This document shows positions 6,700 through 28,534 of a stretch of DNA of 64,000 nucleotides, in pieces. The notes below the pieces were generated by a model, which was not told where the DNA came from, ran no database searches, and saw only the letters and a program-made list of their open reading frames with translations. Origin of the DNA: an uncultured Gemmatimonadales bacterium. Its GTDB lineage: Bacteria > Gemmatimonadota > Gemmatimonadetes > Gemmatimonadales > GWC2-71-9. The stretch is from NCBI GenBank assembly GCA_963796335.1, contig CAWCLG010000006.1, forward strand, positions 950,939 through 1,014,938, in the 5' to 3' direction. The position numbers and the translations under genes were made by a program. Position 1 is the first letter of the stretch, and each line of letters opens with the position of its first letter.

Positions 6700-6856
6700 G
6701 TCGCCACTATCGCTGGGCCCCGGCCGCGCTTCTCCTGCTGATGGCCTGCACCGATCCCGGCGGGGCCGCCGATGCCCTACGCGACCTCGGTCTCGCGACC
6801 TTGTGCCCGGGCGGCGCAGTTCGCCACTTTCACCCACGCCTCCAGCTCGGCCGCCC

Positions 6857-7940
6857 ATGAACCCCCCAAGATCCAGCGCTGGATCGACCTCCTCGCCGCC
6901 CTCCTCGCGCCGCCGCTACCCGCGACCGTTCGAGGAGCTGATCCCCGACGTCCCCGCCTACGCCGCCGGCGACCAGTCGCACGAGACCCGCCGCCGGATG
7001 TTCGAGCGCGACAAGGACGAGCTCCGCGCCTTCGGCATCCCGATCGAGACGATCGACGCCGCCGAGCGAGGGCGAGCGCCAGGCTACCGGCTTCGGCCCC
7101 GCGACTTCTATCTGCCGTACCTCACCGCTCCGCGCCGACGGCCACGACCAAGGCGCCCCGGAAGATCGACAAGTACGGCTACGGCTCGCTCCCGACGCTC
7201 ACCTTCGAGCCCGAGGAGCTGGCCGCGATCGCCGAGGCCGCGGCGCGGGTCCGCGAGCTCGGCGACCCGCTGCTCGCCGAGCACGCCGAGTCGGCGATGC
7301 GGAAGCTGGCGTGCGATCTGCCGATGGACGCCGGCGACGCGCGCCGACGCCACGGGTGTCGCGCCCGCGCGGCCGCAGGCCGGCGCCGGAGGTGTTCGCC
7401 GGCGCTCGGCGAGGCGCTCGCAGCGGCCGGAAGCGGGTCACCTTCAGCTACCACACGATGGGGAGCGACGCCGACGGCCGAGCGCACCGTCGAGCCGTTC
7501 GGGCTCTTCTTCCTCAACCAGCACTGGTATCTGGCCGCGCGGCGCGCAGGGCGAGAGGCCGGTCAAGAACTACCGGCTGAGCCGGATCACCGACGCCGAG
7601 GTGAACGCGCGCCAGCCCGGCACCCCCGACTACGAGATCCCCGCCGGCTTCGACCTCCAGCGAGCACGCCCGCTCGCGCCAGGCCTGGGAGCTGGGCGAC
7701 GGCGACGCGGTCGACGGCCGTCGTCGCGCTCCGCAGCGCCGTCCGGCGCCGCCGCCGCCGCCGCACCGGCTGGGCGAGGCGGTCGAGGGCGACGCGCACC
7801 TGCCGCCGCTTCCGCGTCCGCCGGCGTGGACGCCTTCGCCCGCTGGCTCCTCTCCTTCGCCGGCGACCTCGACCCGGTCTCGCCCGCCGGCGTCGTGGAG
7901 GAATACCGCGGCCTGGTCCGCGAGACCCTCGCCACCACCA
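6857..7940 (+). pseudogene. WYL-domain transcriptional regulator (PafB/PafC-like), at least 6 frame changes
   Basis: ATG 6857 is followed by a C6 run (6862-6867). Segments in alternating frames read KIQRWIDLLAALL, RRYPRPFEELIPDVPAY...FERDKDELRAFGIPIE, YGSLPTLTFEPEELAAIAEAAARVRELGDPLL, RKRVTFSYHTMGSDADG, ERTVEPFGLFFLNQHWYLAAR, VKNYRLSRITDAEV and FARWLLSFAGDLDPVSPAGVVEEYRGLVRETL. Confidence 0.65.
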
Positions 7941-7944
7941 CTCC

Positions 7945-8914
7945 GCCTGACCGCCGACCGCCGCCGCAGCCAGCTCCGCGCGCGATCCTCCACCTCATCC
8001 CCCAGCTGGCCGACGGCGAGCCGCACTCGCTCGCCGAGGTCGCGCGCGAAGGCGGGCGTGGACCGAGCAGACGCGTGCTGCGCGACATCCAGTCGATCTC
8101 GCGAGCGGTTCGAGGCGCCGGGCGGCTTCGTCGAGGGGCTCCAGATCTACCTCGACGCCGACGGGCGTCTCGGTCCACTCGAACCACTTGCTCCGGCCGA
8201 TGCGGCTCACCCGCGGCGAGCTGCTGCGCGCTCGAGCTGGGGCTCACGATGCTCCGCCGGGAGCGTCCGCCGGAGGAGCACGGCGCGATCGACGCGCCGC
8301 TCGAGCGGCTTGCGGGAGGCGATCATCAGGCTGCCCGCGGAGGACGTCGGCGACGCGTTCAGCGCCTCGGCTGCCGGTTCCTCCGGGCGCCTGGATCATC
8401 TCCGGGCCATCCGCGAGGCCCAGCGCGAGCACCGGAAGGTGCGGCTCCACTATCGTCGAAGGGAACGAGCAGGAGGTCGTCGCACCGGATCATCTGCCCC
8501 CACGCGATCGTCTTCGCCACGGGATGTGGTTACGTGGTCGCCCACTGCGAGAGCAACGACGGGGTCCGGTTCTTCCGGCTCGACCGGATGGAGGACGTGC
8601 AGCCGCTGGAGGTCCGGTTTCAGCCTAGCCTCAGCCGGCGGTGGACGCCATCGTGCGGGACGGCCGATGCGTTTCAATCCGATGAGGCCGAGAAGCTGAC
8701 GATCAGGTACTCGCCACGGATCGCGCGCTGGATCGCGGAGCGGGAAGGGAAGACACTGGCGGCCGACGGCTCGCTGACGCTGGAACACCAGTTGGCGGAT
8801 ACCGATTGGGCCGTGCGGCACGTGCTCCAGTACGGACCTGATGCTGAGGTGATAGAGCCGGCGAGCGTCCGCCAGGCTGTGGTCGCACGGCTGAGGCAGA
8901 TCCGGAGCGGCTAA
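7945..8914 (+). pseudogene. second WYL-domain regulator (PafC-like partner), at least 5 frame changes
   Basis: Segments in alternating frames read ILHLIPQLADGEPHSLAEVAREGG, VLRDIQSIS, FEAPGGFVEGLQIYLDADGRL, LLRPMRLTRGELLRA, REAIIRLPAEDV...HLRAIREAQREHRKVRLHYRR and IICPHAIVFATGCGYVVAHCESNDGVRFFRLDRMEDVQPLEVRF. The last ~130 aa are clean and end at the stop 8912-8914. Confidence 0.65.
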
Positions 8915-12267: not shown

Positions 12268-12301
12268 TATCCTATCACCGGTTCAATTCGCGGAGTTTCG
12301 A

Positions 12302-12604
12302 GTGCCGGTGACCGCCAAGCTGTCCAAGCGCTTCTATGACGTCCTAGGCGAGGACGTCGCCAATGAGCTGGTCGACTGGTTCAACGCCGTGGACCTTACC
12401 TACCGTACCGACCTTCGGCAACTAAACGAGCTCAACTTCGCACGCTTCGATGCGAAGCTGGAGCAGCGCATCGCGGAACTGCGTGCTGCGGTCCACGCCG
12501 ACGTCCAGCAGGTCCGCATCGACCTGCTTCGCTGGATGTTCGGCTTCTGGGTCACTACCCTGATCGGCATCGCCGGCCTCCTGATCGCGTTACGCGGGCA
12601 GTAG
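12302..12604 (+). CDS. tail-anchored coiled-coil membrane protein (DUF1640-like), copy 1
   Basis: GTG 12302 follows GGAG. The protein reads VPVTAKLSKRFYDVLGEDVANELVDWFNAVD...coiled coil...LLRWMFGFWVTTLIGIAGLLIALRGQ, ending in a C-terminal TM. By eye it is about 90% nucleotide-identical to 22217..22552. Confidence 0.7.
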   Translation: MPVTAKLSKRFYDVLGEDVANELVDWFNAVDLTYRTDLRQLNELNFARFDAKLEQRIAELRAAVHADVQQVRIDLLRWMFGFWVTTLIGIAGLLIALRGQ

Positions 12605-12618
12605 CCTCAAAAAACCGA

Positions 12619-13534: not shown

Positions 13535-16234
13535 TTACCTCGTGGGTTGAGATGCTGCTTTCGGCCAGTCGGACCCTGGAGCCCGATTCAGGTCGAAGGT
13601 GAACGCAAGGCCGCCGAGAGCGATATGGCTCGCGGGTATCCCTGCGGTGGACAAAGCCATTGAACGAAACTCCGCGGCGGTCTTCGAGTCGCCCAGCCGC
13701 TGGTGAGCTAACGCCACCAGGCACCGGGTCATGATGGCCGGCACTCGGTCCAGGGCCGTGGGATCGTGCTCCCCCTCCCGCGCGCTGTCGCCCAGCAGCT
13801 CGACCACGCGGGACCAGTCGCCCTTGCGCCCCGCCAGGATCGCTTCGATCGCGCGCGGGCCCTGACCTAGCCGCCCCCGGACGGCGGGCGAGAGGGCGTC
13901 GAGCCGCTTCAAGATCGCCGTAGCCTCCATCGTATCGCCCAGGAGCGCCATCCGGAGCCCTCGCTCCGTCACGGCGCCGGGCGCCGAGTCGGACTTCACC
14001 AGGGTTCCCGGGTCGATCCCCACGGCAGGAGTGGCGAACGCGAGGATGGAGCGGGCGCTCTCGTACCAGTATCGGGACGGCGGCGAGGCCTCGCGGGCCT
14101 CGCGACGCAGCAGCGCATCCGCCGCTCTCGGCGACCCCGTCGCCGCCAGCACGGCCACCCTCGCGGTCGTGGCCTCGACCCGGAGCGCCGGCGGTGTGGC
14201 GCTTCCCGCCAGCAGCGCTGCCGCCAAGCTGTCGGCCCCGCGCCAATCCGCTTCCACCAGCCGGAACCGGAGCGACGCATAGTGGGCGTACGCGCCGGTG
14301 AGGTCGCGGGCCTTGGCCCGGGCCCGGTCGAGCTGCCCCAGAGCCAGGAGCATGTCGGTCGCGTTCATGATGGCGGCCTGCGCCTCCCGGGGGCCGAACG
14401 GGCTGTTGTCGGCCGCCCCCTCGAAGTCGTCCAGCGCCGCCTGATACTTCCCCAACAGCGACAGGTAGAACCCTCGGTTGGTCCGTCCCCCGATCGAGCG
14501 CGGAGTCTCCGCCAGGTACCGGTCGTACCATTGGATCGCCTGCGGGATGTCGCGATCGAGCACGTACGCCGCGTCTCCCCGCAGCCGGTACGCCTGGCTG
14601 GTGCTGAGACGCGCCGGCCGTTTCAACGCCTCGAGGTACGCCACCCGCGCCGAGTCGAGGTTGCGCGCTTCCACATGGTTGAGGCCAATCATGGCGTAGG
14701 CTGCCGCGAAGCCGGTGTCGAGCGCGATCGCTTCCTGCAACAGATGGGTGCTGCCGGCCACGTTCCCCTGCTGCTTCTGCCCAACCGCCTCGATGTAGCG
14801 GCGGTACGCCGGCAGGGAAGGGGTGGCGATGTCGAGCAGCACCTGGTTGGCTGTCAGGTCCTCGCGGCGCTCGCCCAGGGACCGCCGCAGGTCGCGGCCG
14901 GCCCGCTCAACCGCGGGCACGAGGCTGTCTCCGCTGGCGGTGACCGTGATCGAGGCCAGGGGATCGCCGTTCTCGACGCCGACCGCCCGCACCTGTACCG
15001 AATACCCCGTCCCTCGCCGGGCGACGGTGCCGCCGATGACGACACGGATCGCGCTTCGGAACGCCAGCTCCCTCGCCAGGTCCGGGTTGACCCGGGTCGA
15101 CTCCGGCAGACCTGCGGCTCGCAGCGTGCCTGCCAGCTGCGATCGCGGCATGGTGGTCAGGTAGCGCGACTGGTTCAGCTCCGTCGTCACCAGCTCCCGC
15201 ACCGCCGTCGCCAGCGTCGGATCGCCCGCCGGGCCATCGAAATCGGAGACCAGCACCCAATCGCGCTCCCGCAGTGGCGCCGGCGATCGCCCAGCCACCG
15301 CCACACCGGCCAGCGCGGCCAGCCCCCCGACGCCCGCCACTGCCAGCCCGGTCCGCCACCATCGCGGCACCAGTCGCCGCCGGCGCCGCCGCTTGGGATC
15401 CTCCAGCGCCTGGAGAAACTCCTCGACCGACGCGAAGCGGTCGTCCGGCAACTTGGCCAGCGCCTGCTCCACGCTCGCCTCGACCGACGCCGGCAGGCCG
15501 GACCGCCGCCGGCGCAGCGGCGCGGGGATGTCCGCGGCGTGTTGCGACAGCACGGCGTGCACCGAGGAACCGTAGAACGGCGGATCGCCCGCCAGCATCT
15601 CGTACATCACGCAGGCCAGGCTGTAGAGATCGCTCCGCGGCCCTACCGTCCCTTTGCCCCAGGCCTGCTCCGGACTCATGTACTGCGGCGTGCCGACCGC
15701 CACGCCCGACTGGGTCAGCCGGCTCGCGCCGGGCTCCTCCAGCGCGAGGGCCAGCCCGAAGTCGGCGACCAGCGCGTGATCTCCCTGGAGCAGGATGTTC
15801 TCCGGCTTCACGTCGCGGTGGACCACACCCTGGCCGTGGGCATGGGCCAGCGCGGCCCCCACGTCCCGGACGATCCGGAGCGCTTCCGCGACCGGCAGCG
15901 GACCGGTCCGCTCCAGCCGCTGGCGCAGGGTCTCGCCCTCGACGAACGGCATCGTGAAGTAGAGGAGCCCGTCGGCTTCGCCCGAGTCGTGGACCGGCAG
16001 GATGCAGGGATGGTGCAGGCGGGCGGCGGTGCGGATCTCCCGGAGGAACCGGTCGGCCCCGACGACCAGCGCGATCTCCGGCCGGAGCGCCTTGAGGGCG
16101 ACCAGCCGGTCGTGCTTCAGGTCCCGGGCCAGATAGACCGTAGCGGTGGCCCCGGCCCCGAGCTGCCGCTCGATGCGGAATTCGCCCGAGACCGCCGGAG
16201 CCAGTCGCTCCAGCAGGCTTGTCGGCACCAACAC
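13535..16234 (-). CDS. Ser/Thr protein kinase with TM, periplasmic module and long TPR region
   Basis: Kinase motifs GAGATATVY, VALK, HRDVKPEN, DFG and GTPQYMSPEQ are present. TM segment WWRTGLAVAGVGGLAALAGVAVAG. TPR-like repeats run to the C-terminus. The start is placed at the GTG/TTG cluster at 16228-16234; the longer track ORF (to 16477) would overlap the divergent gene. Confidence 0.9.
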   Translation of the reverse strand: MLVPTSLLERLAPAVSGEFRIERQLGAGATATVYLARDLKHDRLVALKALRPEIALVVGADRFLREIRTAARLHHPCILPVHDSGEADGLLYFTMPFVEGETLRQRLERTGPLPVAEALRIVRDVGAALAHAHGQGVVHRDVKPENILLQGDHALVADFGLALALEEPGASRLTQSGVAVGTPQYMSPEQAWGKGTVGPRSDLYSLACVMYEMLAGDPPFYGSSVHAVLSQHAADIPAPLRRRRSGLPASVEASVEQALAKLPDDRFASVEEFLQALEDPKRRRRRRLVPRWWRTGLAVAGVGGLAALAGVAVAGRSPAPLRERDWVLVSDFDGPAGDPTLATAVRELVTTELNQSRYLTTMPRSQLAGTLRAAGLPESTRVNPDLARELAFRSAIRVVIGGTVARRGTGYSVQVRAVGVENGDPLASITVTASGDSLVPAVERAGRDLRRSLGERREDLTANQVLLDIATPSLPAYRRYIEAVGQKQQGNVAGSTHLLQEAIALDTGFAAAYAMIGLNHVEARNLDSARVAYLEALKRPARLSTSQAYRLRGDAAYVLDRDIPQAIQWYDRYLAETPRSIGGRTNRGFYLSLLGKYQAALDDFEGAADNSPFGPREAQAAIMNATDMLLALGQLDRARAKARDLTGAYAHYASLRFRLVEADWRGADSLAAALLAGSATPPALRVEATTARVAVLAATGSPRAADALLRREAREASPPSRYWYESARSILAFATPAVGIDPGTLVKSDSAPGAVTERGLRMALLGDTMEATAILKRLDALSPAVRGRLGQGPRAIEAILAGRKGDWSRVVELLGDSAREGEHDPTALDRVPAIMTRCLVALAHQRLGDSKTAAEFRSMALSTAGIPASHIALGGLAFTFDLNRAPGSDWPKAASQPTR

Positions 16235-16340
16235 TCCGTGACGGAAGAGGTTCGGTGATGCTAGCACCCGGGTGGGAGCCGGACAAGGATACCAGCGCTC
16301 CGGCGGCCGTTCTATGTTCCGTCTCCCCACTGGAGACGGC

Positions 16341-17951
16341 ATGCTCCGATTGACCACGTTCGGCGGGGTGGAGCTCCGCGAAGACGGGGCCCCCCACCTC
16401 GGCGCCGCGACCCAGCGCCGCCGCCTCGCGCTCCTCGTCCTGCTCGGCAGCGCTCGCGCGCCGGTGGCGCGGGACAAGCTGGTCGCCTGGCTCTGGCCCG
16501 ACCATCCGTCCGAGCAGGCCCGTCACTCCCTCCGCCAGGCACTGCACACCCTCCAGCGGTCGCTGCCCGGCGTGGTGCTGGTCAGCGGTGAGAACCTGGC
16601 GCTCGATCCCGCGCGCATCGCCACCGACGTGGGAGAGCTGGAGGACGCGGCGTTGGCCGGGACGGAGGACGCGATCGTCACGCTGTACCGGGGGCCGTTC
16701 CTCGACGGGTTCTTCCTGAACGACGCGCCGGCCTTCGAGCGGTGGGCCGATGGCCAGCGGGTCCGCTACGCCGGCCTCTTCACCGCGGCCCTGGAGTCGG
16801 TGGCCGGGCGCGCCGGCCGCGCCGGCAATCATGTCGAGGCGATCGGATGGTGGCGCCGGCTCACCGGCGAGGACAGCCTGAACGCCCGCTACGCCCTCGG
16901 CCTCATGCGAGCCCTTGCCGACGCTCAGGACCGCGCCGGCGCCCTCCGCTATGCGGGAGTCTATGCGGGGATGATGCGGCAGGAGCTGGGAGCCGCGGTG
17001 GATCCGGCCGTCGAGGCGTTCGCCCGCCGGCTCCGCGAGGCCGAGCCCGAGAGCGCGGAGGCCTCGACTCCGGCGCCGCTGGTCCAGACGCGGGAGCGAG
17101 CCCGGCATCGCCAGCGAACCTGGCTCGAGCGCACCTTCGCCGACCGCTACCTGCTGGCCCCGTCGTCTTCCGGGGGCACCGCCGTGGTTTCCTACCGGGC
17201 GCGACGGCTCGAGGCCGGGGACGAGGTGGAGATTCACCTGCTCGATCCCGGGCTGTCCGTCGCGGCCGATCCCGACCGGCTGCTGGCCTCCCTCGAACGA
17301 GTCGCCCAGATGCGCGCGCCGCGGATGGGACCGCTGCTCGAGGTCGGCAGTGCCGACGGCGTGGTCTACTATGTGACGTCGCGCCCGCCGGGGGAGACGT
17401 TGCGCGAGAAGCTCGGTCGAGAGCGGCAGCTGCCGTTGCCGGAGGCGGTCGCCATCACCGATGGGATCGGGGAGGCACTGGAGGCGGCCCACGCTGGGGG
17501 CGTCCGGCACGGGGACCTGCGGCCGCGGCACGTGCACGTGAATGACGGAGACGTCGTCGTGGCCGGCTTCGGGATCGCGGACGCCTTGCTCGACGCGACC
17601 CGGTCCGACCGGTCGTCCGCCATGCTCCGGTTCGGGTCGCCAGCCTATCAGAGTCCGGAACAGCTCGCGGGCGACCCACGCCTTGACGAGCGGTCCGACC
17701 TCTACAGCCTGGGCTGCATTCTTTTTGAGATGCTGGCCGGCGAGGTGCCGTTCGCCAGCGCCGACCGGCCGGCCCTGATCCACGGCAAGCTCACCGGCGG
17801 CGCCGCGTCGGTGCGCCCGCGCCGCGATTCCGTGAGCGACGCGCTCGACCAGGTCGTGAGCCGCTGCCTGGCCCGCTCTCCGGCCGACCGGTTTCCCTCC
17901 GCCACCGCTCTCCGCGCCGCGCTGCATGCCGCCACCCATCTCCCGGCCTGA
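16341..17951 (+). CDS. SARP (winged helix + BTAD) regulator fused to a degenerate kinase-like (pseudokinase) domain
   Basis: The N-terminal part reads MLRLTTFGGVELRE...QRRRLALLVLL...LYRGPFLDGFFLNDAPAFERW...YALGLMRAL. In the C-terminal domain the beta3 Lys position is VEIHLL, the catalytic loop is HGDLRPRHV and DFG is replaced by GFG. SPAYQSPEQ and DLYSLGCILFEML are retained. An alternative ATG lies at 16314. Confidence 0.85.
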   Translation: MLRLTTFGGVELREDGAPHLGAATQRRRLALLVLLGSARAPVARDKLVAWLWPDHPSEQARHSLRQALHTLQRSLPGVVLVSGENLALDPARIATDVGELEDAALAGTEDAIVTLYRGPFLDGFFLNDAPAFERWADGQRVRYAGLFTAALESVAGRAGRAGNHVEAIGWWRRLTGEDSLNARYALGLMRALADAQDRAGALRYAGVYAGMMRQELGAAVDPAVEAFARRLREAEPESAEASTPAPLVQTRERARHRQRTWLERTFADRYLLAPSSSGGTAVVSYRARRLEAGDEVEIHLLDPGLSVAADPDRLLASLERVAQMRAPRMGPLLEVGSADGVVYYVTSRPPGETLREKLGRERQLPLPEAVAITDGIGEALEAAHAGGVRHGDLRPRHVHVNDGDVVVAGFGIADALLDATRSDRSSAMLRFGSPAYQSPEQLAGDPRLDERSDLYSLGCILFEMLAGEVPFASADRPALIHGKLTGGAASVRPRRDSVSDALDQVVSRCLARSPADRFPSATALRAALHAATHLPA

Positions 17952-18542: not shown

Positions 18543-18708
18543 TTCATCCTCCGTATTGGCAAACCGGCGATTCAAGCCGGTTGATAGGCCCCTTGAGTGC
18601 GTACAGGTTAGGCGGCTGCCGTCATGCCGCTGTCATCAGGCCGTCACCTCGTGTCACGATTCCCATCTTGTGCCGCGCGGGACGGCTCGCCACCTTCAGC
18701 CACCTTCC

Positions 18709-21700
18709 ATGCGGTTTCTCGCTGACGGCACGTTTCGGTATTCCCCCCACGACCTGGTCGCCTTCCTCGACGGCGACTTCGCCGCCTGGTGCGAGCGAAT
18801 GCTCGCTGAGCGCGGGCGCGCCGGGGGCGCCGGCCCCAGCTCGCTCGGCTGGGCCACGCCCGACGAGGGTGACGAGGAGGTCGCCCTGGCCAAACGAAAG
18901 GGCGACGAGCACGAGCAGCGCTATCTCGCCGGCCTCCGCGAGAAGTACCCCAAGCTCCTCGCCCTCGAGCGCGACGACCCCGACGGCCTGGCCAGGACCC
19001 TCGCCGCCATGCAGGCCGGCGATCCCGTCATCTACCAGGGCCACCTGGTGGCCGACGGCTGGGGCGGCTTCCCCGACTTCCTCTTCCGCTGCGAGGGGAA
19101 CGACGGCTGTAAGGGCTGGCATTACACCCCGTGGGACACCAAGCTGGCTCGCAGCGCGAAGCCCGCCTTCCTGGTCCAGCTCTGCGCCTACGCCGACATG
19201 CTCGAGCTGCTGCACGGCCACCTGCCGGGCGAGCTGGTCTTCGTCTTCGGCGGCGGCGAGCAGCGCCCGTATCGCACCCACGACTACTTCCACTACTACC
19301 GCCGGCTCCGCCGTGCGTTCACCGCGTTTCAGAGCGGCTGGAGCGCGGACCGCGCTCCCGAGCCCGGGCTGGACGAGAGCTGGGGTCGCTGGGAGAGGAC
19401 CGCCGAGAAGCTGCTGGAGCAGTCCGATCACCTGAGCCTGGTCGCCAACATCACCCGCGGGCAGGTCGCTCGGCTGAACGAGGCCGGCATCGCCACGCTG
19501 GCCGACCTCGCCTGGTGCGAGCCCGGTAGGCGGGTGTCGAAGGTGTCGGACGAGGTGTTCGAGCGACTCCGCGCCCAGGCCGAGCTCCAGGTCGCCTCCC
19601 GCGATCTCACCGTGCCGCTGTGGCGACTTCGCGAGCTGAGCGCGGACGAGCCGCGCCGCGGGCTCGCCATGCTGCCCGAGCCGTCCGACGGCGACGTCTT
19701 CTTCGACATGGAAGGCTTTCCCTACGCCGAGGGCGGGCTGGAGTACCTCTTCGGCGCTGTGACCGTCGGCGACGACGTGGTCCCTGTGTTCCACGACTGG
19801 TGGGCGCACGATCCGGCTGGGGAGCGCGCGGCATTCGAGGGATTCATCGACTGGCTGGTCGAGCGGCGGCGTCACCATGCCGAGCTCCACGTCTATCACT
19901 ACGCCTCGTACGAGGAGTCGGCGGTCAAGCGCCTGGCCGCCAAGTACGCCACCCGCGAGCTGGAGGTGGATGACCTGCTGCGCGGCGAAGTGTTCGTGGA
20001 TCTCTACAACGTCGTCCGCCAGGGGTTCATCGTCGGTACCACGAGCTACTCGCTGAAGAAGATCGAGCGGCTCTACCAGCAGCAGCGTGAGGGCCAGGTC
20101 GTCACTGCCGGCGGCTCGGTGGTGGAGTACCAGAAGTGGATCGACAGTGGGGAGCCTCGTCGGTGGGTCGCGTCCCCCACGCTGAAGGGAATTCGCGACT
20201 ACAACGAGAAGGACTGCGAGTCGGTCTGGGGGCTCCGGAGCTGGCTGCTGGAGCGGCAGCGGGAGAACGGCATCGCCTACCTCTCGCCGGCGCCCGCTGT
20301 GAAGAGCCCAAGCGGCCCGCGGCGCCAGAGCGGGCGGAGGCCGAGGCGATCGCGGTCCGCCTCCGCGGACGGGCCACCCTCGACACCGGCGACGATGAGC
20401 GATCCCGCCTGGACGAGCTCCTCGGCTGCCTGGTCGAATACCACCGGCGAGAGGATCGACCCGAGTGGTGGGCCCTGTTCGAGCGGCACGACCGGATGAC
20501 GGTCGAGCAGCGGTTCGAGGACGCGGAGTGCCTCGCCGGATTGGTGCGGACCGCCACGCCGCCGGTGGCGATAAAGAAGTCGTGCGGGCTGGAGTACAGC
20601 TTCAATCCGCAGCAGGAGACCAAGCTCCACGCCGGTTCCAAGTGCCAGATCGCGGGCGACAAGAACGCGACCTACGAGATCACCCGGTTGGACGAGGATG
20701 CCGGCCTGGTGGAGATCAAAGTCGGGCCGAGCAAGTCGCCCGACGACCGGATCTGCCTGATCGGCTTCGACCGCTACGACGAGAAGGAGCAGAAGAAGGC
20801 GATTCTGCGATACGCGTCGGCGTGGGAGCGCGGCACCATCCTGTCGCCCGCGGTGGACGACCTGCTGCGCCGCCGGCCGCCCCGGATCCGAGGCCATGCG
20901 GGCGGGCCGCTGGTTCGTGAGGGAGAGGACACGGTCGAGCGCGCCCGCGAGCTGGTCACCCGGCTCGACGGAAGCACGCTCTGCCTCCAGGGGCCGCCGG
21001 GCACAGGGAAGACCTACACCGCGGCCGCGATGATCGTGGCGCTGCTCCGTGAGGGCGCCAAGATCGGCGTCAGCGCCCAGAGCCATAAGGTGATCGGGAA
21101 TGTGCTTAAGGCAGTCGTGGGGGAGATGAAGCGCACGGGCGTCTCCGGCAGCCTCTTCAGGAAGAGCGACGGCGAGGACGATGGGCTGGCGAAGGGTGTG
21201 GTCCGCGAGGTGGGGAACGACGACGTCCTCGCGGCGATCTCCGGTGGCTCGGCAGTCGTCGGCGGCACGTCGTATCTGTTCAGCCGCGAGGAGATGGCCG
21301 GCGCGTTCGACTACCTCTTCATCGACGAAGCCGGCCAGTTCTCCCTCGCCAACGCCGTCGCGGTCGGGCAGGCCGCCCGTAACCTGATCCTGGTGGGCGA
21401 CCAGATGCAGCTCGCGCAGGTGACCAAGGGGGCGCATCCGGGGGACACCGGTCTCTCCTGCCTGGAGTACTACCTCGACGGGAAGGCCACGGTGCCGCCG
21501 GAGCTGGGAATCTTCCTCGAGCGTACGCGACGGATGCACCCTGATGTCTGCAGCTTCATCTCCAAGGCGATCTACGAATCCAGGCTCAGTCCGATTCCGG
21601 AGACGGCGCGGCGCCGCGTGCTTCGCGGTCCTGACACGGTCTTGGTGCCGGCGGAGACCGGGATCGCCTGGGTTCCCGTGGACCACGACGGCCGCACCCA

Positions 21701-22151
21701 GTCGAGCGACGAGGAGTGCGAGCGGATCGTGGCCATCGTCGAGGAGCTGCGGCGGCGGCGGGTGGTGGATAAGGACGGCGTGGAGCGCGCCCTCACGCCC
21801 AATGACATCATCGTGGTGGCCCCGTTCAACCTCCAGGTGCGCTGTCTGCGGCAGCGCCTTGATTCCCGGATCAAGATCGGCTCGGTCGACAAGTTCCAGG
21901 GCCAGGAGGCGCCGGTGGCGATCGTCTCGCTATGCTCCTCCACCCTCGCGGACGCTCCCCGCGGCGCGACGTTCCTGCTGAGCCCCAACCGGCTCAACGT
22001 CGCGATATCACGGGCGCAGGCGCTGGCAATCGTGGTGGGGTGTCCGGAGCTGATGGATGTGCGGTGCCACTCGCTGGAGGAGATGCGGCTGGTGAACCTG
22101 CTCTGTCACCTGGTGGACTACGCTGAGGTAGCGGGTGCCCGGTCTGCGTAG
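18709..22151 (+). CDS. three-domain fusion of a PD-(D/E)xK RecB/Cas4-like nuclease (TM0106-type), an RNase-H-fold exonuclease and an SF1B (Upf1/Dna2-like) helicase; one frameshift near 20300-20315
   Basis: Nuclease motifs GFPDFLF, WDTKLA and VQLCAYADML. Exonuclease motifs DVFFDMEGFP, LHVYHYASYEESAVKRL and SYSLKKIERLY. Helicase motifs GPPGTGKT, FIDEAGQ, LVGDQMQL, RMHPDV, VDKFQGQEAP and LNVAISRAQ. This joins ORFs 18556..20499 and 20136..22151. Confidence 0.85.
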
Positions 22152-22153
22152 AA

Positions 22154-22182
22154 TTGATGACGCTGTCCGCCGAGCGTATAGT
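22154..22182 (+). promoter_or_regulatory. sigma70-like promoter of DUF1640-like gene copy 2 (TTGATG-N17-TATAGT)
   Basis: TTGATG at 22154-22159, a 17-nt spacer, then TATAGT at 22177-22182. It starts 3 bp after the helicase stop codon (22149-22151). Confidence 0.55.
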
Positions 22183-22216
22183 TATCGTATCACCGGTTCC
22201 TTCAGCGGAGTTCTGA

Positions 22217-22552
22217 GTGCCGGTGACCGCCAAGCTGTCCAAGCGCTTCTATGACGTCCTTGGCGAGGACGTCGCCAACGAGCTGGTCGACTGGTTCAAC
22301 GCCGTGGACCTGACCTACCGCACAGACCTACGCGAGCTGAACGAGCTCAACTTCGCGCGCTTCGACGCGAAGCTGGAGCAGCGTATCGCTGAGCTGCGTG
22401 CGGAGTTCCGCACTGAGCTACAGCAGCTCCGCCTCGATTTCCGCAGCGACCTTCAGCGAGTCCGTATCGAGCTGCTTCGCTGGATGTTCGGCTTCTGGGT
22501 CACCACTCTCATCGGTATCGCCGGCCTGCTGATCGCGTTGCGCGGCCAGTAA
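22217..22552 (+). CDS. tail-anchored coiled-coil membrane protein (DUF1640-like), copy 2
   Basis: GTG 22217 follows GGAG. It carries an extra 11-residue coiled-coil unit relative to copy 1 (EFRTELQQLRLDFRSDLQRVRIELLRW versus AVHADVQQVRIDLLRW). The C-terminal TM is identical. Confidence 0.75.
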   Translation: MPVTAKLSKRFYDVLGEDVANELVDWFNAVDLTYRTDLRELNELNFARFDAKLEQRIAELRAEFRTELQQLRLDFRSDLQRVRIELLRWMFGFWVTTLIGIAGLLIALRGQ

Positions 22553-22587
22553 ACTCCGCCCCTGCCTGACATCGGCCAACCCTCGAT

Positions 22588-22953: not shown

Positions 22954-23085
22954 GATTCCGCTCCGTGAATGCGAGTGAAATGATCGCTGTCCGCCAGCCC
23001 CTTGGTAACGCGAGCCGGTACAGAGCTAACGGTAATAGCGACGCGCATTTTACTGGAGGTCAGCGGGGCGTGGTCGGCGGACGGT

Positions 23086-23149
23086 GTCATCCTGAGCGAA
23101 GCGAAGGAGACCATGTCGATCTCCGCTCCTTCGCTTCGCTCAGGATGAC
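23086..23149. repeat. REP-like palindromic element (24-bp arms, 16-nt loop)
   Basis: GTCATCCTGAGCGAAGCGAAGGAG (23086-23109) pairs with CTCCTTCGCTTCGCTCAGGATGAC (23126-23149), a perfect inverted repeat. It lies in an intergenic region between two minus-strand genes. Confidence 0.85.
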
Positions 23150-23176
23150 ATGCGCTTAGGATGATATTAGCGACGC

Positions 23177-26869: not shown

Positions 26870-28342
26870 TCAGCGGATGTACCTGAGATCGAGGTCCGTC
26901 TCGCTCCGATACAGGACGTGCAGCCGCCCCGAGCCGTCCAGCGCCGCCGAGGTCCAGGTGCCGACGTCGCCCGCCTGGTCCACGGCCACCGATCGCCAGC
27001 TCGCCCCGGCGGTACAGACGGCGGTGCAGGTGGCATACTTGAGATCGCCGTTGCTGGCGTCGCGGTACACCACGTGTAGTCGGCCGTCGCCGTCACGGGC
27101 GAGCGAAGTGTACTGGCCCACGTTACCGGGCTGATCCACCGCCAGCGAGGTCCAGTTGGTCACCGTCCCGCACTGCGCGGCGCACGTCGCGTAGGTCAAG
27201 TCGCCGTTGCTGTTGTCGTAATAGCTGAGGTGGACTCCGTTGCTCCCGTCGAGCGCCATGGACGGGTTCGACCCGGCGCCCTCGTCCACGGTGATCTCGC
27301 TCCAATTGGCCGCGGTCGTGCATCCGGCGCCGCACGTCGCGTAAGCCAGGGTGGTATTGAAGGCGCGCGGCCAGGCCGCGTGAACCCGGCCGGTGCCGTC
27401 CACCGCGATGACGGCCTTCTGCGCCCCGGGTCCCAGATCGCCCAGGAGGGCACTGGTCCAGGCTTCAGGTGTGGCGCACTCCGCCTCGCAGGTGGAGTAC
27501 TTGAGGTTGAAGTTGGTGAGGTCGAAGTAGGCCGCGTGGAGCCGCCCGCCATCGTCCGCCGTAAGCGACCCGAAACCGGTGACGTTGCCGACGCTGTCGA
27601 CCGTCGCCGCCGTCCAGCTCGCGGGAGTGGTGCACGCCGCGGTACAGGTGGCGTACCGCACGTCGAGGTTGTCGATGTCGGCGTAGATCACGTGCAGGCC
27701 GCCTTCCGGGTCGATCGCCAGCGAGGCTGACTGCCCCACGTTCCCGTCCTCGTCCACGGTGATGGCCGTCCAGTTGGCGGCGGTGGCGCACTCCGACTCG
27801 CAGGTGGCGTACCGGAGATCCTCACCGGCCCCGTCCCAATAGACCGCATGCAGCCGCCCGTTCGCATCCACCGCAAGCGAGATTGCGCTGCCTTCGCCGC
27901 TCAGTTGGTCCACGGCACCCGCCTGCCAGGCCCTCGTGGTGAAGCTCCACCCCTCCGCTTCCGAGAGTGGTTCCCCTTCGTCGTCGGTGATCCCGGTCGT
28001 CAGCTCGGCCTGATACAGGGTGGCCGGCAGGAGCGGACCCACCAGCCGCGCGGTGCGGCTCCCGGCGTCATAGGTGACCGCCGTGGGGAGCGGGCTGCCG
28101 CCGGCGCGGAGGACGAAGGTCTCGGTAGTCACCGTCGCGCCGATGACGTCGCGATTGAACGACGCGGTCAGGGGGACGCCGGTCTCGACATCGTCCGCGG
28201 CATCCGCGGGGCTTACCGCCGTGACAGCAAGGGGGTCCGGCGTCGGGGAGGGATCCTGGGTGTCGTCGCCACAGCCCAGCAGGCACAGCCCCAACAGCCA
28301 GAGAGATCGGCCGGCTGAGGCGGTTGTCGTCGTGGTGGTCAT
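26870..28342 (-). CDS. lipoprotein with an Ig-like N-terminal domain and six ~45-aa YATC(x3)C...NW repeats (predicted beta-propeller)
   Basis: Lipobox LWLLGLCLLGC. Ig-like stretch LAVTAVSPADAADDVETGVPLTASFNRDV. Repeats LRYATCESECATAANW, VRYATCTAACTTPASW, LKYSTCEAECATPEAW, LAYATCGAGCTTAANW, LTYATCAAQCGTVTNW and LKYATCTAVCTAGASW, with a terminal LRYIR. Confidence 0.8.
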   Translation of the reverse strand: MTTTTTTASAGRSLWLLGLCLLGCGDDTQDPSPTPDPLAVTAVSPADAADDVETGVPLTASFNRDVIGATVTTETFVLRAGGSPLPTAVTYDAGSRTARLVGPLLPATLYQAELTTGITDDEGEPLSEAEGWSFTTRAWQAGAVDQLSGEGSAISLAVDANGRLHAVYWDGAGEDLRYATCESECATAANWTAITVDEDGNVGQSASLAIDPEGGLHVIYADIDNLDVRYATCTAACTTPASWTAATVDSVGNVTGFGSLTADDGGRLHAAYFDLTNFNLKYSTCEAECATPEAWTSALLGDLGPGAQKAVIAVDGTGRVHAAWPRAFNTTLAYATCGAGCTTAANWSEITVDEGAGSNPSMALDGSNGVHLSYYDNSNGDLTYATCAAQCGTVTNWTSLAVDQPGNVGQYTSLARDGDGRLHVVYRDASNGDLKYATCTAVCTAGASWRSVAVDQAGDVGTWTSAALDGSGRLHVLYRSETDLDLRYIR

Positions 28343-28369
28343 GCGGAGCCCCGGGGTAAGTGTCGAGCC

Positions 28370-28426
28370 AAGATGCCGGTAGGGCGTCCCCGGACCGCCT
28401 CTTGCCCGTCACCCGGGAGGTGACGA
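28370..28426 (-). promoter_or_regulatory. conserved promoter block with GTCAC-N7-GTGAC palindrome (copy A)
   Basis: In gene orientation it reads CGTCACCTCCCGGGTGACGGGCAAGAGGCGGTCCGGGGACGCCCTACCGGCATCTT. It lies 27 nt upstream of ATG 28342. The order and 38-nt spacing match copies at 54604-54660 and 61351-61407. Confidence 0.45.
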
Positions 28427-28445
28427 CATCGTGGCTACCATAGCT

Positions 28446-28519
28446 ATCCCCAGCGCAGCGAGGGACCTTGCCTGGACGGTTCGAGCCATCCGGGCAAAGT
28501 CCCTCGCTGCGCTCGGGAT
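28446..28519. repeat. REP-like palindromic element
   Basis: ATCCCCAGCGCAGCGAGGGACCTTGCC (left arm) pairs with GGCAAAGTCCCTCGCTGCGCTCGGGAT (right arm). It lies between the groEL stop and the upstream region of 26870..28342. Confidence 0.8.
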
Positions 28520-28534
28520 GAAGCGGCAGTGCCG

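What the first reader, a model, noticed from the sequence alone, without database searches (positions are those of the whole stretch)
18709..22151. 1147-aa PD-(D/E)xK nuclease + RNase-H-fold exonuclease + SF1B helicase fusion as a candidate single-gene nucleic-acid surveillance factor
One polypeptide, with a single frame break near 20300-20315, combines three modules. The first is a Cas4/RecB-like nuclease (GFPDFLF, WDTKLA, QLCAY). The second is a YprB-like 3'-5' exonuclease (DVFFDMEGFP, HYASYE). The third is an Upf1/Dna2-like helicase (GPPGTGKT, DEAGQ, GDQMQL, FQGQE, NVAISRA). The logic of a nuclease coupled to an SF1 helicase in one protein is shared with known anti-phage proteins of the nuclease-helicase type, such as Nhi. 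That is an analogy, not a homology claim. The gene sits in the repeat-bracketed block and looks slightly less GC-rich than its neighbours around 20500-21100. The TM0106-type family is widespread but, to my knowledge, functionally uncharacterised.
Basis: partly seen in the sequence, partly recalled or inferred. Interest (0 to 1): 0.55.

Follow-up and report, generated by a model that had tools for sequence, protein, structure and literature searches.

The report
Frameshifted TM0106 nuclease–exonuclease–helicase fusion gene
The window really does carry a 3.4-kb gene joining two DNA-cutting modules to a DNA-unwinding motor; it belongs to a large, catalogued but never-tested family, is broken by one missing base here, and in related bacteria sits behind a DNA-damage-type switch, so an anti-virus role is possible but unproven.

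Summary
Positions 18709-22151 (+) encode a 1147-aa protein, interrupted by one 1-nt-deletion-type frame break at about 20296-20301. Its modules are a Cas4/RecB-like PD-(D/E)xK nuclease, an HhH motif, a DEDDy RNase_H_2 exonuclease, a stalk plus beta-barrel, and a Upf1/Dna2-like SF1B helicase.

It is a clear member of the catalogued but uncharacterised TM0106/COG2251 family (TIGR03491, 218 bits). Full-length relatives of 1130-1175 aa occur patchily in at least 539 species and on 70 plasmids, and none were found on phages. There is no universal partner gene and synteny is rarely conserved.

The defence reading is neither shown nor refuted. PADLOC matches only the helicase core. Five of 11 plasmid contexts examined for neighbours lie in defence- or TA-type islands, and one lies in a DNA-damage island. 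This window has no canonical defence system nearby.

One new result emerged. WYL/PafBC-like regulators are the commonest neighbour. In 8 of 15 Gemmatimonadota orthologous loci, TGTCAC-N10-TANNNT lies 22-98 nt upstream of the gene. This has the same geometry as the mycobacterial PafBC promoter.

Best reading: an accessory, ssDNA/damage-induced, Dna2-like DNA-end processor. In this window it is either pseudogenised or mis-assembled.

The parts
18709..22151 (+). Whole gene for the 1147-aa TM0106-family nuclease-exonuclease-helicase, with ATG at 18709 and TAG at 22149-22151. It is read in two frames because of one frame break.
   Evidence: ORFs; translations; corrected protein; colinear alignment to full-length homologues.
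20296..20301 (+). Frame break of the 1-nt-deletion type (frame 1 to frame 3) inside a non-conserved Pro/Ala/Glu-rich linker. As assembled, frame 1 runs on to a stop at 20497-20499, giving a 596-aa product.
   Evidence: Sequence; alignment A1 columns 530-550. The 596-aa product is on record as P0121, from a 1,822,882-bp NCBI/ENA contig.
18709..19413 (+). Cas4/RecB-like PD-(D/E)xK nuclease domain (aa 1-235). Catalytic residues are D123, D143-x-K145 and Q157...Y161. There is no conserved 4-Cys Fe-S cluster.
   Evidence: TIGR03491 hit; invariant residues in 58-sequence alignment A3; AF2 model pLDDT 92.4; best Foldseek match Cas4 8d3l, E 7.6e-4, then Dna2 5ean and ACE1; Cys positions 28, 128, 134, 159 only.
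19450..19512 (+). Helix-hairpin-helix-like DNA-binding motif (ITRGQVARLNEAGIATLADLA, aa 248-268) between the two nuclease domains.
   Evidence: Sequence; helices 250-258 and 264-268 in the model. The assignment as HhH is by motif pattern and is an inference.
19696..20247 (+). DEDDy-type 3'-5' exonuclease domain (Pfam RNase_H_2, aa 330-513). Exo I is D333-x-E335, Exo II is HYASYE with E402, and Exo III is Y498-x3-D502. D431 is also invariant.
   Evidence: Pfam PF13482, 82 bits; invariant columns. The family is placed among PolB-like 3'-5' exonucleases by Majorek 2014.
20325..20828 (+). Helical stalk (C-half aa 10-66) and beta-barrel (aa 78-156) that precede the helicase core, as in Upf1/Dna2-like helicases.
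   Evidence: AF2 model pLDDT 91.2, secondary structure; Foldseek alignments of 650-730 columns to IGHMBP2, Dna2 and Upf1.
20961..22067 (+). SF1B (Upf1/Dna2-like) helicase core. Walker A is GPPGTGKT (K768 of the full-length protein), Walker B is DEAGQ, and GDQMQL, FQGQE and NVAISRA are also present.
   Evidence: Pfam AAA_11/AAA_12; PDB sequence hits IGHMBP2 1e-20, Upf1, Dna2; Foldseek IGHMBP2 3.5e-28 and Dna2 5.2e-28 with TMq 0.64.
18620..18673 (+). Upstream region with four phased (C/T)GTCA(C/T) hexamers at 18620, 18631, 18642 and 18652. The last is TGTCAC followed by GATTCC-CATCTT. This is a degenerate copy of the TGTCAC-N10-TANNNT promoter motif seen in orthologues, with a spacer of 6 instead of 10.
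   Evidence: No exact motif is present in the window.
6803..8914 (+). PafB-PafC-like (wHTH-WYL-WCX) regulator ORF about 10 kb upstream. It is the likely trans-regulator of the gene. The PafC-like part (7979-8911) is intact. The PafB-like part changes frame near 7120 and again near 7550.
   Evidence: tblastn with PafBC-like proteins of L002, L010 and L046; Pfam HTH_PafC/WYL/WCX on the L002 and L010 proteins.
22142..22556 (+). Copy B of a small C-terminally membrane-anchored protein gene, immediately after the stop codon. Its paralogue, copy A, lies at 12227-12608. Copy B carries a CGA>TGA change at codon 20.
   Evidence: Repeat families D4 and D11; DNA alignment; translations. A homologue ends about 190 nt upstream of the orthologue in L004.

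Best explanation
The gene encodes a member of the TM0106/COG2251 nuclease-helicase family. This is a single-chain, Dna2-like DNA-end and flap processor.

**Inferred mechanism.** The C-terminal SF1B motor, with its Upf1/Dna2-type stalk and barrel, loads on single-stranded DNA and moves 5'->3'. The N-terminal Cas4/RecB-like PD-(D/E)xK nuclease, which lacks an Fe-S cluster, cuts the tracked 5' strand. The inserted PolB-like DEDDy exonuclease trims 3' ends. One polypeptide could therefore resect or destroy both strands from a DNA end, nick or flap.

**Regulation in this lineage.** In Gemmatimonadota, the lineage of this window, the gene is transcribed from a PafBC-type promoter: a -26 element TGTCAC, 10 nt, then TANNNT. 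It is often physically linked to a PafB/PafC-like WYL regulator pair. It would therefore be switched on when single-stranded DNA accumulates, through DNA damage or foreign DNA replication.

**Evolutionary status.** It is an accessory, horizontally moving gene, not a core repair gene.

**State in this window.** The copy is broken by a 1-nt deletion, its promoter spacing is off, and the PafB-like regulator has two frame breaks. The module is either decaying or the assembly carries indel errors.

**Shown versus inferred.** Shown: architecture, family membership, intact catalytic motifs, distribution, WYL linkage and the promoter motif. Inferred: substrates, polarity, induction and the biological role.
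For: **Architecture and family.** Domain and family hits. Colinear full-length homologues. All catalytic residues are invariant in 58-sequence alignments.

**Structure.** AF2 models have pLDDT 92.4 and 91.2. Foldseek places the N half with Cas4 (E 7.6e-4), Dna2 and ACE1. It places the C half with IGHMBP2 (3.5e-28), Dna2 (5.2e-28, TMq 0.64) and Upf1.

**WYL linkage.** WYL/WCX is the most frequent nearest-neighbour family, at 9-10 of 146 nearest neighbours. WYL genes lie within 10 kb in 15 of 83 loci. A divergent WYL gene sits 50-62 bp upstream on Novosphingobium, Rhizobium and Sphingomonas plasmids.

**Operon and promoter layout.** In L002 and L046 the gene is followed on the same strand by PafB- and PafC-like genes, separated or overlapping by only a few bases, which fits one operon. 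In L010 a divergent PafBC-like pair and the gene have back-to-back copies of the motif.

**Promoter motif.**
- The exact pattern TGTCAC-N10-TANNNT occurs 16 times in 1.50 Mb of loci. Eight of these are on the + strand, 22-98 nt upstream of the gene, in Gemmatimonadota loci.
- Two more loci have TGTCACAC-N8-CAYCTT.
- Chance expectation in the window is 0.06 per 64 kb.
- The PafBC consensus is tGTCgg(N10)tA(N3)T, with a strictly conserved GTC (PMC8635444).
- PafBC, DriD and CapW are activated by ssDNA (PMC11804915, PMC9186387, PMC11662680).

**Damage-island context.** One plasmid copy lies with SRAP, AlkB, DinB and DnaE2. L002 has Lhr and Endo_dU nearby.

**Accessory status.**
Against: - No member of the family has been tested, so substrate (DNA or RNA), polarity and nuclease activities are all inferred from homology.
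- Upf1-like helicases include RNA enzymes.
- The motif was found only in Gemmatimonadota. Looser versions occur on three alpha-proteobacterial plasmids. It was absent from Legionella, Binatia, Obscuribacterales and a Rhodococcus plasmid.
- I could not show the motif upstream of recA or other canonical repair genes in this phylum.
- WYL regulators also control defence systems (BrxR, CapW), so the regulation does not separate repair from immunity.
- The window's own promoter copy has the wrong spacing, and the gene is frameshifted.
- Most loci (68 of 83) have no WYL gene within 10 kb.
Confidence: 0.5

Rival explanations
1. The gene is a stand-alone anti-phage or anti-plasmid effector. The helicase loads on replication or recombination intermediates or free ends of invading DNA, and the two nucleases degrade them, by analogy with Nhi, Hna or RecBCD-type restriction. 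Where WYL regulators are present, they act as BrxR/CapW-like switches.
For: - It is a single-gene unit with no universal partner.
- Its distribution across phyla is patchy.
- Synteny is lost even within Legionella.
- It is on 70 plasmids, 25 of them conjugative.
- Several plasmid copies sit in defence-type contexts. These are BREX-1 plus a TrlF ATPase on Vibrio p123; type I R-M plus McrBC plus a toxin-antitoxin system (TA) plus an integrase in Acaryochloris; SIR2 plus an ATPase in Piscirickettsia; dGTPase, a methyltransferase, a multiubiquitin/ThiF/DUF6527 module and RmuC in Rhizobium; and TA plus NurA/ATPase in Picosynechococcus.
- WYL repressors of defence systems sense ssDNA (PMC11662680).
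- Known nuclease-helicase defences exist (PMC10732053).
Against: - PADLOC gives no hit for the nuclease/exonuclease half and only helicase-core hits to MkoA, MkoC and DpdJ.
- NCBIfam gives no anti-phage name.
- Chromosomal contexts, including this window, are mostly unremarkable.
- Apart from WYL proteins, only a handful of the 146 nearest neighbours match PADLOC defence models, and no family is matched by more than 5 of them. No background control was run.
- The heterodimeric PafBC-like pairs and the -26/-10 activator-type promoter are so far known from DNA-damage regulons, not from defence.
- One copy sits in a mutagenesis/repair island.
- Plasmid contexts are biased towards accessory genes anyway.
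Confidence: 0.3
2. In this genome the gene is a recent pseudogene, part of a decaying regulator-effector module. It has no present function. The reverse possibility is that the break is only an assembly indel and the gene is intact.
For: - The 1-nt frame break is present in the public assembly. The 596-aa truncated product P0121 is on record from a 1.82-Mb contig.
- The PafB-like regulator 10 kb upstream has two more frame breaks.
- The promoter spacer is 6 instead of 10 nt.
- Copy B of the adjacent small gene has a nonsense codon.
- All other long ORFs in the window look intact, so the breaks are concentrated in functionally linked genes.
- Another family member is visibly disrupted, by IS5, on a Picosynechococcus plasmid.
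Against: - Both halves keep coding-type GC3 of 0.87 and 0.85.
- The sequence shows 0 unique deviations at 106 near-invariant columns in the N half and 3 of 110 in the C half, which is within the range of intact homologues. Any inactivation is therefore very recent.
- Single-base indels are typical of long-read-only MAG assemblies.
- No reads were available to check.
- I did not verify the other genes against homologues, so hidden breaks elsewhere are possible.
Confidence: 0.4
3. The protein is an RNA-directed surveillance enzyme. In this reading a Upf1-like RNA helicase is coupled to ribonucleases, as proposed for some Upf1-like defence helicases such as CoCoNuT CnuH and Mokosh MkoA.
For: - The closest solved helicases by sequence and fold are the RNA helicases IGHMBP2, Upf1 and Sen1.
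- PADLOC's best hit is the helicase core of MkoA.
- The Upf1-like clade acts on RNA or ssDNA (PMC11090510).
Against: - Dna2, a DNA enzyme, matches equally well and over both halves.
- The Cas4/RecB-type nuclease and the PolB-like DEDDy exonuclease are DNA enzymes in all characterised relatives.
- There is an HhH-type DNA-binding motif.
- The linked regulators sense ssDNA.
Confidence: 0.05
4. The gene serves the mobile elements that carry it. Possible roles include processing transferred or replicating plasmid DNA, or attacking competing elements. In this reading it does not serve the host cell.
For: - It is on 70 plasmids, 25 of them conjugative.
- Integrases, transposases and TA modules lie next to it on several plasmids.
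- Chromosomal positions are variable.
Against: - No conserved link to relaxase, replication or partition genes was seen in the 14 plasmid contexts read.
- No phage carries it.
- Most copies found are chromosomal, without flanking mobility genes.
- No tRNA, integrase or element ends lie around the gene in this window.
Confidence: 0.1

Closest known systems
TM0106 family RecB-like putative nuclease (NCBIfam TIGR03491; COG2251), long form fused to AAA_11/AAA_12 helicase domains
   Same: The protein is a direct member. It scores 217.7 bits against a cut-off of 97.45. Full-length homologues are 38-74% identical with the same 1130-1175-aa architecture, and RefSeq names them this way. The PD-(D/E)xK + PF13482 + tandem AAA architecture was described computationally in 2014.
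   Different: Nothing differs except the frame break. The family itself has no tested function. Short TM0106-only forms of about 515-520 aa also exist, for example on Pseudarthrobacter plasmids.
Eukaryotic Dna2 nuclease-helicase (PDB 5ean, 5eaw, 5eax)
   Same: The order of modules is the same: an N-terminal RecB/Cas4-type nuclease, then a stalk and beta-barrel, then an SF1B helicase. Foldseek matches both halves: prob 0.77 for the N half; E 5.2e-28 and TMq 0.64 for the C half.
   Different: There is no 4-Cys Fe-S cluster. An extra HhH motif and a whole DEDDy exonuclease domain lie between the nuclease and the stalk. Sequence similarity is limited to the helicase. The protein is bacterial, accessory and WYL-linked, not a replication factor.
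Cas4 and the Argonaute-associated Cas4-family protein ACE1
   Same: Cas4 is the best structural match for the N-terminal domain (8d3l, E 7.6e-4; ACE1 9iab). The D...DxK...QxxxY motifs are shared.
   Different: There is no Fe-S cysteines pattern. No CRISPR or Argonaute genes lie nearby. Here the domain is one module of a 1147-aa helicase fusion.
MrfB/YprB exonuclease of the MrfAB mitomycin-C repair pair (Bacillus subtilis)
   Same: The exonuclease domain falls in the same Pfam family, RNase_H_2 (PF13482), and a helicase is paired with a 3'-5' exonuclease.
   Different: MrfB is a DEDDh enzyme that works with the separate SF2 3'-5' helicase MrfA. Here the domain is DEDDy-type and is fused to an SF1B helicase and a second nuclease. 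phmmer against PDB chain sequences, with the N half as query, returned no exonuclease chain at E <= 1.
Nhi, Hna and other single-protein nuclease-helicase anti-phage systems
   Same: One polypeptide couples nuclease and helicase activities. These systems respond to ssDNA/SSB-type replication intermediates.
   Different: No homology was detected outside generic helicase motifs. None of the PADLOC hits is to a model named Nhi or Hna. No protection data exist for this family.
PafBC regulon of Actinobacteria (RecA-NDp / -26 element promoters)
   Same: Orthologues in Gemmatimonadota carry TGTCAC-N10-TANNNT at 22-98 nt from the start codon. The PafBC consensus is tGTCgg(N10)tA(N3)T. PafB/PafC-like gene pairs lie in the same operon or are divergently transcribed.
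   Different: The phylum is different and the bases after GTC differ (AC versus gg). No ChIP or expression data exist. The pair is linked to this nuclease-helicase rather than to the Pup-proteasome locus. The motif is not intact in the window itself.

Membership tests
TM0106 family RecB-like putative nuclease (TIGR03491 / COG2251) | Score above the curated NCBIfam cut-off over the nuclease plus RNase-H-like module | tested here: met
   217.7 bits against a cut-off of 97.45, aa 87-513 matching profile positions 54-462 of 462.
TM0106 family RecB-like putative nuclease (TIGR03491 / COG2251) | PD-(D/E)xK catalytic residues and RecB-type QxxxY motif conserved | tested here: met
   D123, D143, K145, Q157 and Y161 are invariant in 58 sequences.
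TM0106 family RecB-like putative nuclease (TIGR03491 / COG2251) | Long-form architecture: colinear fusion to an AAA_11/AAA_12 SF1 helicase | tested here: met
   99-100% query coverage by 1130-1175-aa homologues. RefSeq products of 1110-1170 aa carry this name on plasmids.
Dna2 nuclease-helicase | RecB/Cas4-type nuclease N-terminal to an SF1B helicase with stalk and beta-barrel | tested here: met
   Foldseek: 5ean prob 0.77 for the N half; E 5.2e-28 and TMq 0.64 for the C half.
Dna2 nuclease-helicase | Four-cysteine Fe-S cluster spanning the nuclease domain | tested here: not met
   The domain's only Cys residues are 28, 128, 134 and 159. There is no C-terminal CxxCx5C, and the positions are not conserved across the family.
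Dna2 nuclease-helicase | Sequence-level orthology over the whole protein | tested here: not met
   PDB sequence and profile searches match Dna2 only in the helicase.
Known anti-phage systems in PADLOC-DB v2 (Mokosh, Dpd, Hhe, Nhi and others) | Full-length match to a system's protein model | tested here: not met
   The N half has 0 hits. The C half matches MkoA positions 759-1096 of 1112, MkoC 768-953 and DpdJ 64-470 of 2112, which is the helicase core only. I did not verify whether the library holds an Nhi model.
Known anti-phage systems in PADLOC-DB v2 (Mokosh, Dpd, Hhe, Nhi and others) | Presence of the system's partner genes (for example the Mokosh PLD nuclease or the dpd cluster) | tested here: not met
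   Neighbours in the window are kinases, DUF6623, DUF1428, SBP56 and GroEL. No conserved partner was found across 84 loci.
Defence-island gene (guilt by association) | Significant enrichment of known defence genes among neighbours | tested here: inconclusive
   Five of 11 plasmid contexts examined for neighbours hold defence-type or TA-type gene sets. Among the 146 chromosomal nearest neighbours, apart from the WYL matches (10 proteins), no PADLOC family is matched by more than 5 proteins, and no background control was available.
PafBC-type (WYL, sigma-adaptation) regulon member | 22-nt bipartite motif: GTC-containing -26 element, 10-nt spacer, TANNNT | tested here: met
   Met in orthologues: 8 exact and 2 near matches in 15 Gemmatimonadota loci, against 0.06 expected per 64 kb. 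The consensus is from PMC8635444. Not met in the window itself, where the spacer is 6.
PafBC-type (WYL, sigma-adaptation) regulon member | Induction by DNA damage that depends on the WYL regulator | not testable with these tools
   This needs expression data or reporter assays.
MrfAB-type repair pair | RNase_H_2 exonuclease partnered with a YprA/MrfA SF2 helicase (DUF1998) | tested here: not met
   The exonuclease family matches, but the helicase is SF1B of the Upf1/Dna2 type, not YprA-like.

The most novel reading that the evidence does not exclude
The TM0106 nuclease-helicase may be the effector of a previously unrecognised, cross-phylum, ssDNA-triggered module. In this module a WYL regulator switches on a one-protein, dual-nuclease DNA shredder and resection machine. 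The regulator is a PafBC-like heterodimer with sigma-adaptation-type promoters in Gemmatimonadota, and a single divergent WYL protein in alpha-proteobacteria. That would extend PafBC-type promoter logic outside Actinobacteria. It would also define a new inducible system on the border between DNA repair and immunity against mobile DNA, and the enzyme's own ssDNA production could feed back on its regulator.
Probability: 0.3. Interest if true: 0.7.

Novelty: new member of a known kind. Interest (0 to 1): 0.45.

Why it matters
The family is large. With the nuclease/exonuclease half as query, it matches 6090 clusters at 50% identity, 1466 of them at E <= 1e-30. It is spread over many phyla and plasmids. 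It combines three nucleic-acid enzymes in one chain, yet I found no experiment or structure for any member.

If the WYL/PafBC link holds, there is a direct, cheap experimental handle. That handle is damage-inducible reporters, plus nuclease and Walker A mutants in the intact Vibrio, Rhizobium or Sphingomonas copies. These experiments could decide whether this is a repair factor, an immune effector or both. The link would also show that PafBC-style -26/-10 promoters are not confined to Actinobacteria.

For this particular window the practical message is more modest. The gene is annotated in public data as a truncated 596-aa protein because of a single-base frame break, and it should be treated as a possible pseudogene or assembly error.

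Tried and rejected
**Literature.** Searches for TM0106, COG2251, Upf1-like with Cas4-like, Dna2-like with anti-phage, Nhi and Rv1251c found no functional study of the family. [quoted passage not shown] I could not test its membership.

**Source contig.** It could not be retrieved, either with the exact 596-aa product or with P0121.

**Mobile-element explanation for the 'repeat-bracketed block'.** Rejected. The repeats are paralogous small genes. There is no tRNA, integrase or Rfam hit.

**GC anomaly.** Rejected.

**Second WYL gene broken.** I first thought the second WYL gene (PafC-like) was also frameshifted. tblastn without composition filtering shows it is intact.

**Ser/Thr kinases as partners.** They are near the gene in several Gemmatimonadota loci, and MkoA combines kinase and helicase. 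However, orientation is convergent or variable, and this phylum appeared kinase-rich in the loci I read, so I did not adopt this.

**Canonical PafBC motif in Actinobacteria.** A search upstream of the Rhodococcus and Pseudarthrobacter plasmid copies found nothing.

**One-mismatch motif hits in the window (4085, 4593).** These are not above chance.

**Foldseek on the two-domain N half.** It gave only weak hits for the RNase-H-like domain.

Full report
**1. The observation**

The + strand between 18709 and 22151 holds two long overlapping ORFs. One runs 18556..20499 in frame 1 and the other 20136..22151 in frame 3. Both have coding-type third-position GC of 0.87 and 0.85.

Joining window:18709-20298 to window:20298-22148 gives a 1147-aa protein. 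It aligns over 99-100% of its length with 1130-1175-aa proteins at up to 74% identity. The junction falls in a poorly conserved Pro/Ala/Glu linker (YLSPAPA | EEPKRPAAPERA). The frame change, from frame 1 to frame 3, is what a single missing base near 20296-20301 would produce.

Two side remarks are not:
- The stretch 20500-21100 has 0.687 GC, against 0.688 for the gene and 0.684 for the window.
- The 'repeat bracket' is a pair of paralogous small genes for a protein with a C-terminal membrane anchor. They lie at 12227-12608 and 22142-22556 and are about 85% identical. The second copy carries a nonsense codon.

**2. Anatomy**

- **Family and domain hits.** NCBIfam places aa 87-513 in TIGR03491, 'TM0106 family RecB-like putative nuclease' (217.7 bits, cut-off 97.45). 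Pfam finds RNase_H_2 at aa 330-513, and AAA_11, AAA_12, AAA_30 and AAA_19 in the C half.
- **Conserved residues.** In 58-sequence alignments the following are invariant or nearly so: the PD-(D/E)xK residues D123, D143, K145, Q157 and Y161; the exonuclease residues D333, E335, E402, D431, Y498 and D502; and the helicase motifs.
- **N-half model.** The AlphaFold model has pLDDT 92.4. Its best solved-structure matches are Cas4 (8d3l, E 7.6e-4), Dna2 (5ean, prob 0.77) and the Argonaute-associated Cas4-family protein ACE1.
- **C-half model.** The model has pLDDT 91.2. It shows a long helical stalk, a beta-barrel and two RecA-like domains. It matches IGHMBP2 (3.5e-28), Dna2 (5.2e-28, TMq 0.64), Upf1 and Sen1. 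Sequence searches of the PDB agree for the helicase and find nothing for the N half.
- **No Fe-S cluster.** The Cas4/Dna2-type four-cysteine cluster is absent.
- **HhH motif.** An HhH-like motif (aa 248-268) sits between the two nuclease domains.

The overall plan is Dna2-like, with an extra DEDDy exonuclease inserted.

**3. Family, distribution and literature**

- **Size of the family.** Using the N half alone, 6090 clusters at 50% identity match at E <= 0.001, and 1466 match at E <= 1e-30. Most of the best 150 are about 1100-1170 aa long.
- **Taxonomic spread.** They include Gemmatimonadota (the closest, so this is the likely source phylum), Planctomycetota, Binatia, Obscuribacterales, Verrucomicrobiota, Dehalococcoidia, cyanobacteria, many Legionella, Acinetobacter and Bacteroidota. 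Identity ranges from 38 to 66%.
- **Plasmids and phages.** Seventy plasmids carry the family, 25 of them conjugative. No phage record does.
- **Prior description.** Majorek et al. [quoted passage not shown]
- **No functional work.** I found no functional paper and no structure.

**4. Genomic context**

Across 84 loci there is no universal neighbour. Synteny is mostly absent between species. Only 3 of 36 Legionella/Coxiellaceae locus pairs and 22 of 120 Gemmatimonadota locus pairs share even one neighbour family within 6 kb. The sampled Binatia and Acinetobacter loci do share neighbours.

In this window the neighbours are two Ser/Thr kinases, DUF6623, the small membrane protein, DUF1428, SBP56 and GroEL. 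PADLOC finds only generic kinase hits and a Uma2-type candidate (PDC-S03) about 8.5 kb away.

On annotated plasmids the picture is mixed:
- Vibrio p123: BREX-1 plus a TrlF ATPase.
- Acaryochloris: type I R-M plus McrBC plus TA plus an integrase.
- Piscirickettsia: SIR2 and a DEAD helicase.
- Picosynechococcus: TA and NurA/ATPase modules around an IS5-split copy.
- Rhizobium: dGTPase, a methyltransferase, a multiubiquitin/ThiF/DUF6527 module and RmuC.
- Novosphingobium: SRAP, AlkB, DinB and DnaE2.
- Legionella: plain accessory DNA.

PADLOC itself gives no hit for the N half and only helicase-core hits (MkoA, MkoC, DpdJ) for the C half.

**5. The WYL/PafBC link (new here)**

The most frequent nearest-neighbour family is WYL/WCX, at 9-10 of 146 nearest neighbours. 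WYL genes lie within 10 kb in 15 of 83 loci, and about ten of these are adjacent.

- **Plasmids.** On Novosphingobium, Rhizobium and Sphingomonas plasmids a WYL gene is divergently transcribed 50-62 bp upstream.
- **L002 and L046.** In these Gemmatimonadota loci the gene is followed on the same strand, with gaps or overlaps of a few bases, by two WYL genes. One of them carries HTH_PafC.
- **L010.** Here a PafBC-like pair is divergent.

Inspection of upstream regions showed a shared motif. The exact pattern TGTCAC-N10-TANNNT occurs only 16 times in 1.50 Mb of fetched loci, counting both strands. Eight of these lie on the coding strand 22-98 nt before the start codon, in L002, L003, L004, L005, L006, L010, L046 and L083. 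L001 and L014 have TGTCACAC-N8-CAYCTT. L010 has a second copy on the other strand facing the PafBC-like pair. The window-based chance expectation is 0.06 per 64 kb. The spacers differ in every locus, so it is the motif that is conserved, not the flanking sequence.

The mycobacterial PafBC consensus is tGTCgg(N10)tA(N3)T. It comprises a -26 element with a strictly conserved GTC plus a -10 element, read by 'sigma adaptation' (PMC8635444). PafBC, DriD, SiwR and CapW are all switched by ssDNA.

Looser versions, TGTC(A/G)C-N10-(T/C)A, occur on the Sphingomonas, Rhizobium and Haematobacter plasmids. Nothing comparable was seen in Legionella, Binatia, Obscuribacterales or a Rhodococcus plasmid.

**6. 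State of the copy in this window**

The truncated 596-aa frame-1 product is on record exactly as encoded here. It comes from a 1.82-Mb NCBI/ENA contig, so the break is in the public assembly.

- **No sign of long decay.** The sequence shows 0 unique deviations at 106 near-invariant columns in the N half and 3 of 110 in the C half, which is within the range of intact homologues.
- **Promoter.** The window has no intact promoter motif. TGTCAC at 18652 is followed by a 6-nt rather than a 10-nt spacer, and it is preceded by three more phased GTCA hexamers.
- **Regulator.** The fused PafB-PafC-like ORF at 6803-8914 has two frame switches in its PafB-like part. The PafC-like part is intact.

Other long ORFs in the window look intact, so the breaks are concentrated in functionally linked genes. 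This favours real decay. Long-read indel errors cannot be excluded without the reads.

**7. Interpretation**

Shown:
- the architecture, family membership and intact catalytic motifs;
- the patchy, partly plasmid-borne distribution;
- the absence of a fixed partner gene;
- the recurrent WYL linkage;
- a PafBC-geometry promoter motif in the window's phylum.

Inferred:
- a 5'->3' ssDNA motor feeding a 5'-strand nuclease, with a 3'-5' exonuclease trimming the other end;
- induction by ssDNA;
- the biological role.

I rank the readings as follows:
- An ssDNA/damage-induced accessory DNA-end processor: 0.5.
- A dedicated anti-phage or anti-plasmid effector: 0.3. The two overlap mechanistically.
- A mobile-element-serving role: 0.1.
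- An RNA-directed role: 0.05.

Independently of these, there is about a 0.4 chance that the copy in this window is a true pseudogene.

**8. Verdict**

This is a correct and careful observation of a member of a known, catalogued but uncharacterised family. The defence idea remains open. The WYL/PafBC-type regulation is the most useful new lead.

Novelty: new member of a known kind. Interest: 0.45.

Noticed in passing
window 12227-12608 and 22142-22556: A small gene (123 aa, coiled-coil-like with a C-terminal membrane anchor, no Pfam hit) is duplicated at about 85% DNA identity on either side of a roughly 10-kb block. Copy B has a CGA>TGA nonsense codon at codon 20 and an 11-codon insertion. A homologue ends about 190 nt upstream of the nuclease-helicase in locus L004.
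   Followed up: partly
window 6803-8914 (+): A fused PafB-PafC-like wHTH-WYL-WCX ORF. The PafC-like part (7979-8911) is intact. The PafB-like part switches frame near 7120 and back near 7550. It lies about 10 kb upstream of the nuclease-helicase that such regulators flank in other genomes.
   Followed up: partly
window 18620-18657: Four (C/T)GTCA(C/T) hexamers are spaced 10-11 nt apart, one per helical turn, just upstream of the gene. No such array is apparent in the upstream regions of the orthologues, which show a single TGTCAC-N10-TANNNT instead.
   Followed up: no
window 9042-10284 and 41489-42029: Three paralogous Uma2-family ('putative restriction endonuclease') genes form repeat families D3, D6, D8 and D14. 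One of them matches the PADLOC candidate system PDC-S03. A Uma2 gene also lies near the orthologue in L001.
   Followed up: partly
window 23085-23150, 28446-28523, 39162-39247: Related REP-like palindromes, with core CATCC(C/T)GAGCG(C/A)AGCGA(G/A)GGA, are placed directly after the stop codons of minus-strand genes, one of them GroEL. They are probably terminators or a repetitive extragenic element family.
   Followed up: no
window 28367-28434, 54601-54668, 61348-61415: A shared 68-nt element containing the hairpin CGTCACC-N5-GGTGACG lies at the 5' end of three minus-strand genes. Two of these are paralogous Big_5/BNR repeat proteins. It may be a common leader or regulatory element.
   Followed up: no
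window 26968-27817 and 53219-54059: Repeats with a 156-nt period occur inside two paralogous genes (26870-28342 and 53121-54593, minus strand; the first has Big_5/BNR hits). They indicate tandem domain repeats with conserved Cys and Trp codons.
   Followed up: no
window 13535-17951; L001, L002, L003, L010, L011: Ser/Thr kinase-TPR genes lie within a few kb of the nuclease-helicase in the window and in five other Gemmatimonadota loci. The PADLOC MkoA model combines an N-terminal kinase with the helicase core that this protein matches. Orientation is variable, and this phylum appeared kinase-rich in the loci I read, so this may be coincidence.
   Followed up: partly
L002, L004, L005, L006, L046, L073 (20-60 nt upstream of the start codon): A conserved GGTTACCTTGG block sits in the 5' leader of the orthologues, downstream of the TGTCAC motif. 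In L046 it supplies the -10 element. The window has CCACCTTC twice instead.
   Followed up: no
window 4085-4106 and 4593-4614 (+): Two one-mismatch matches to the motif (TGTCACACCCCAGATCTATCCC and TGTCACACCGCCGCCCCAATTT) lie upstream of ORFs and an M48-peptidase gene that precede the PafBC-like ORF. Their number is not above chance (2 found, 2.4 expected).
   Followed up: partly
L088 (Picosynechococcus plasmid); L095 and L097 (Pseudarthrobacter plasmids): One family member is split by an IS5 insertion into separately annotated nuclease and 'AAA domain' genes. Actinobacterial plasmids carry natural TM0106-only forms (514-522 aa) without the helicase.
   Followed up: partly
window 54761-56306 (+): Two overlapping ORFs in different frames each carry a Gate (nucleoside recognition) domain. 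They could be two adjacent genes or another frameshifted gene. This bears on the indel quality of the assembly.
   Followed up: no
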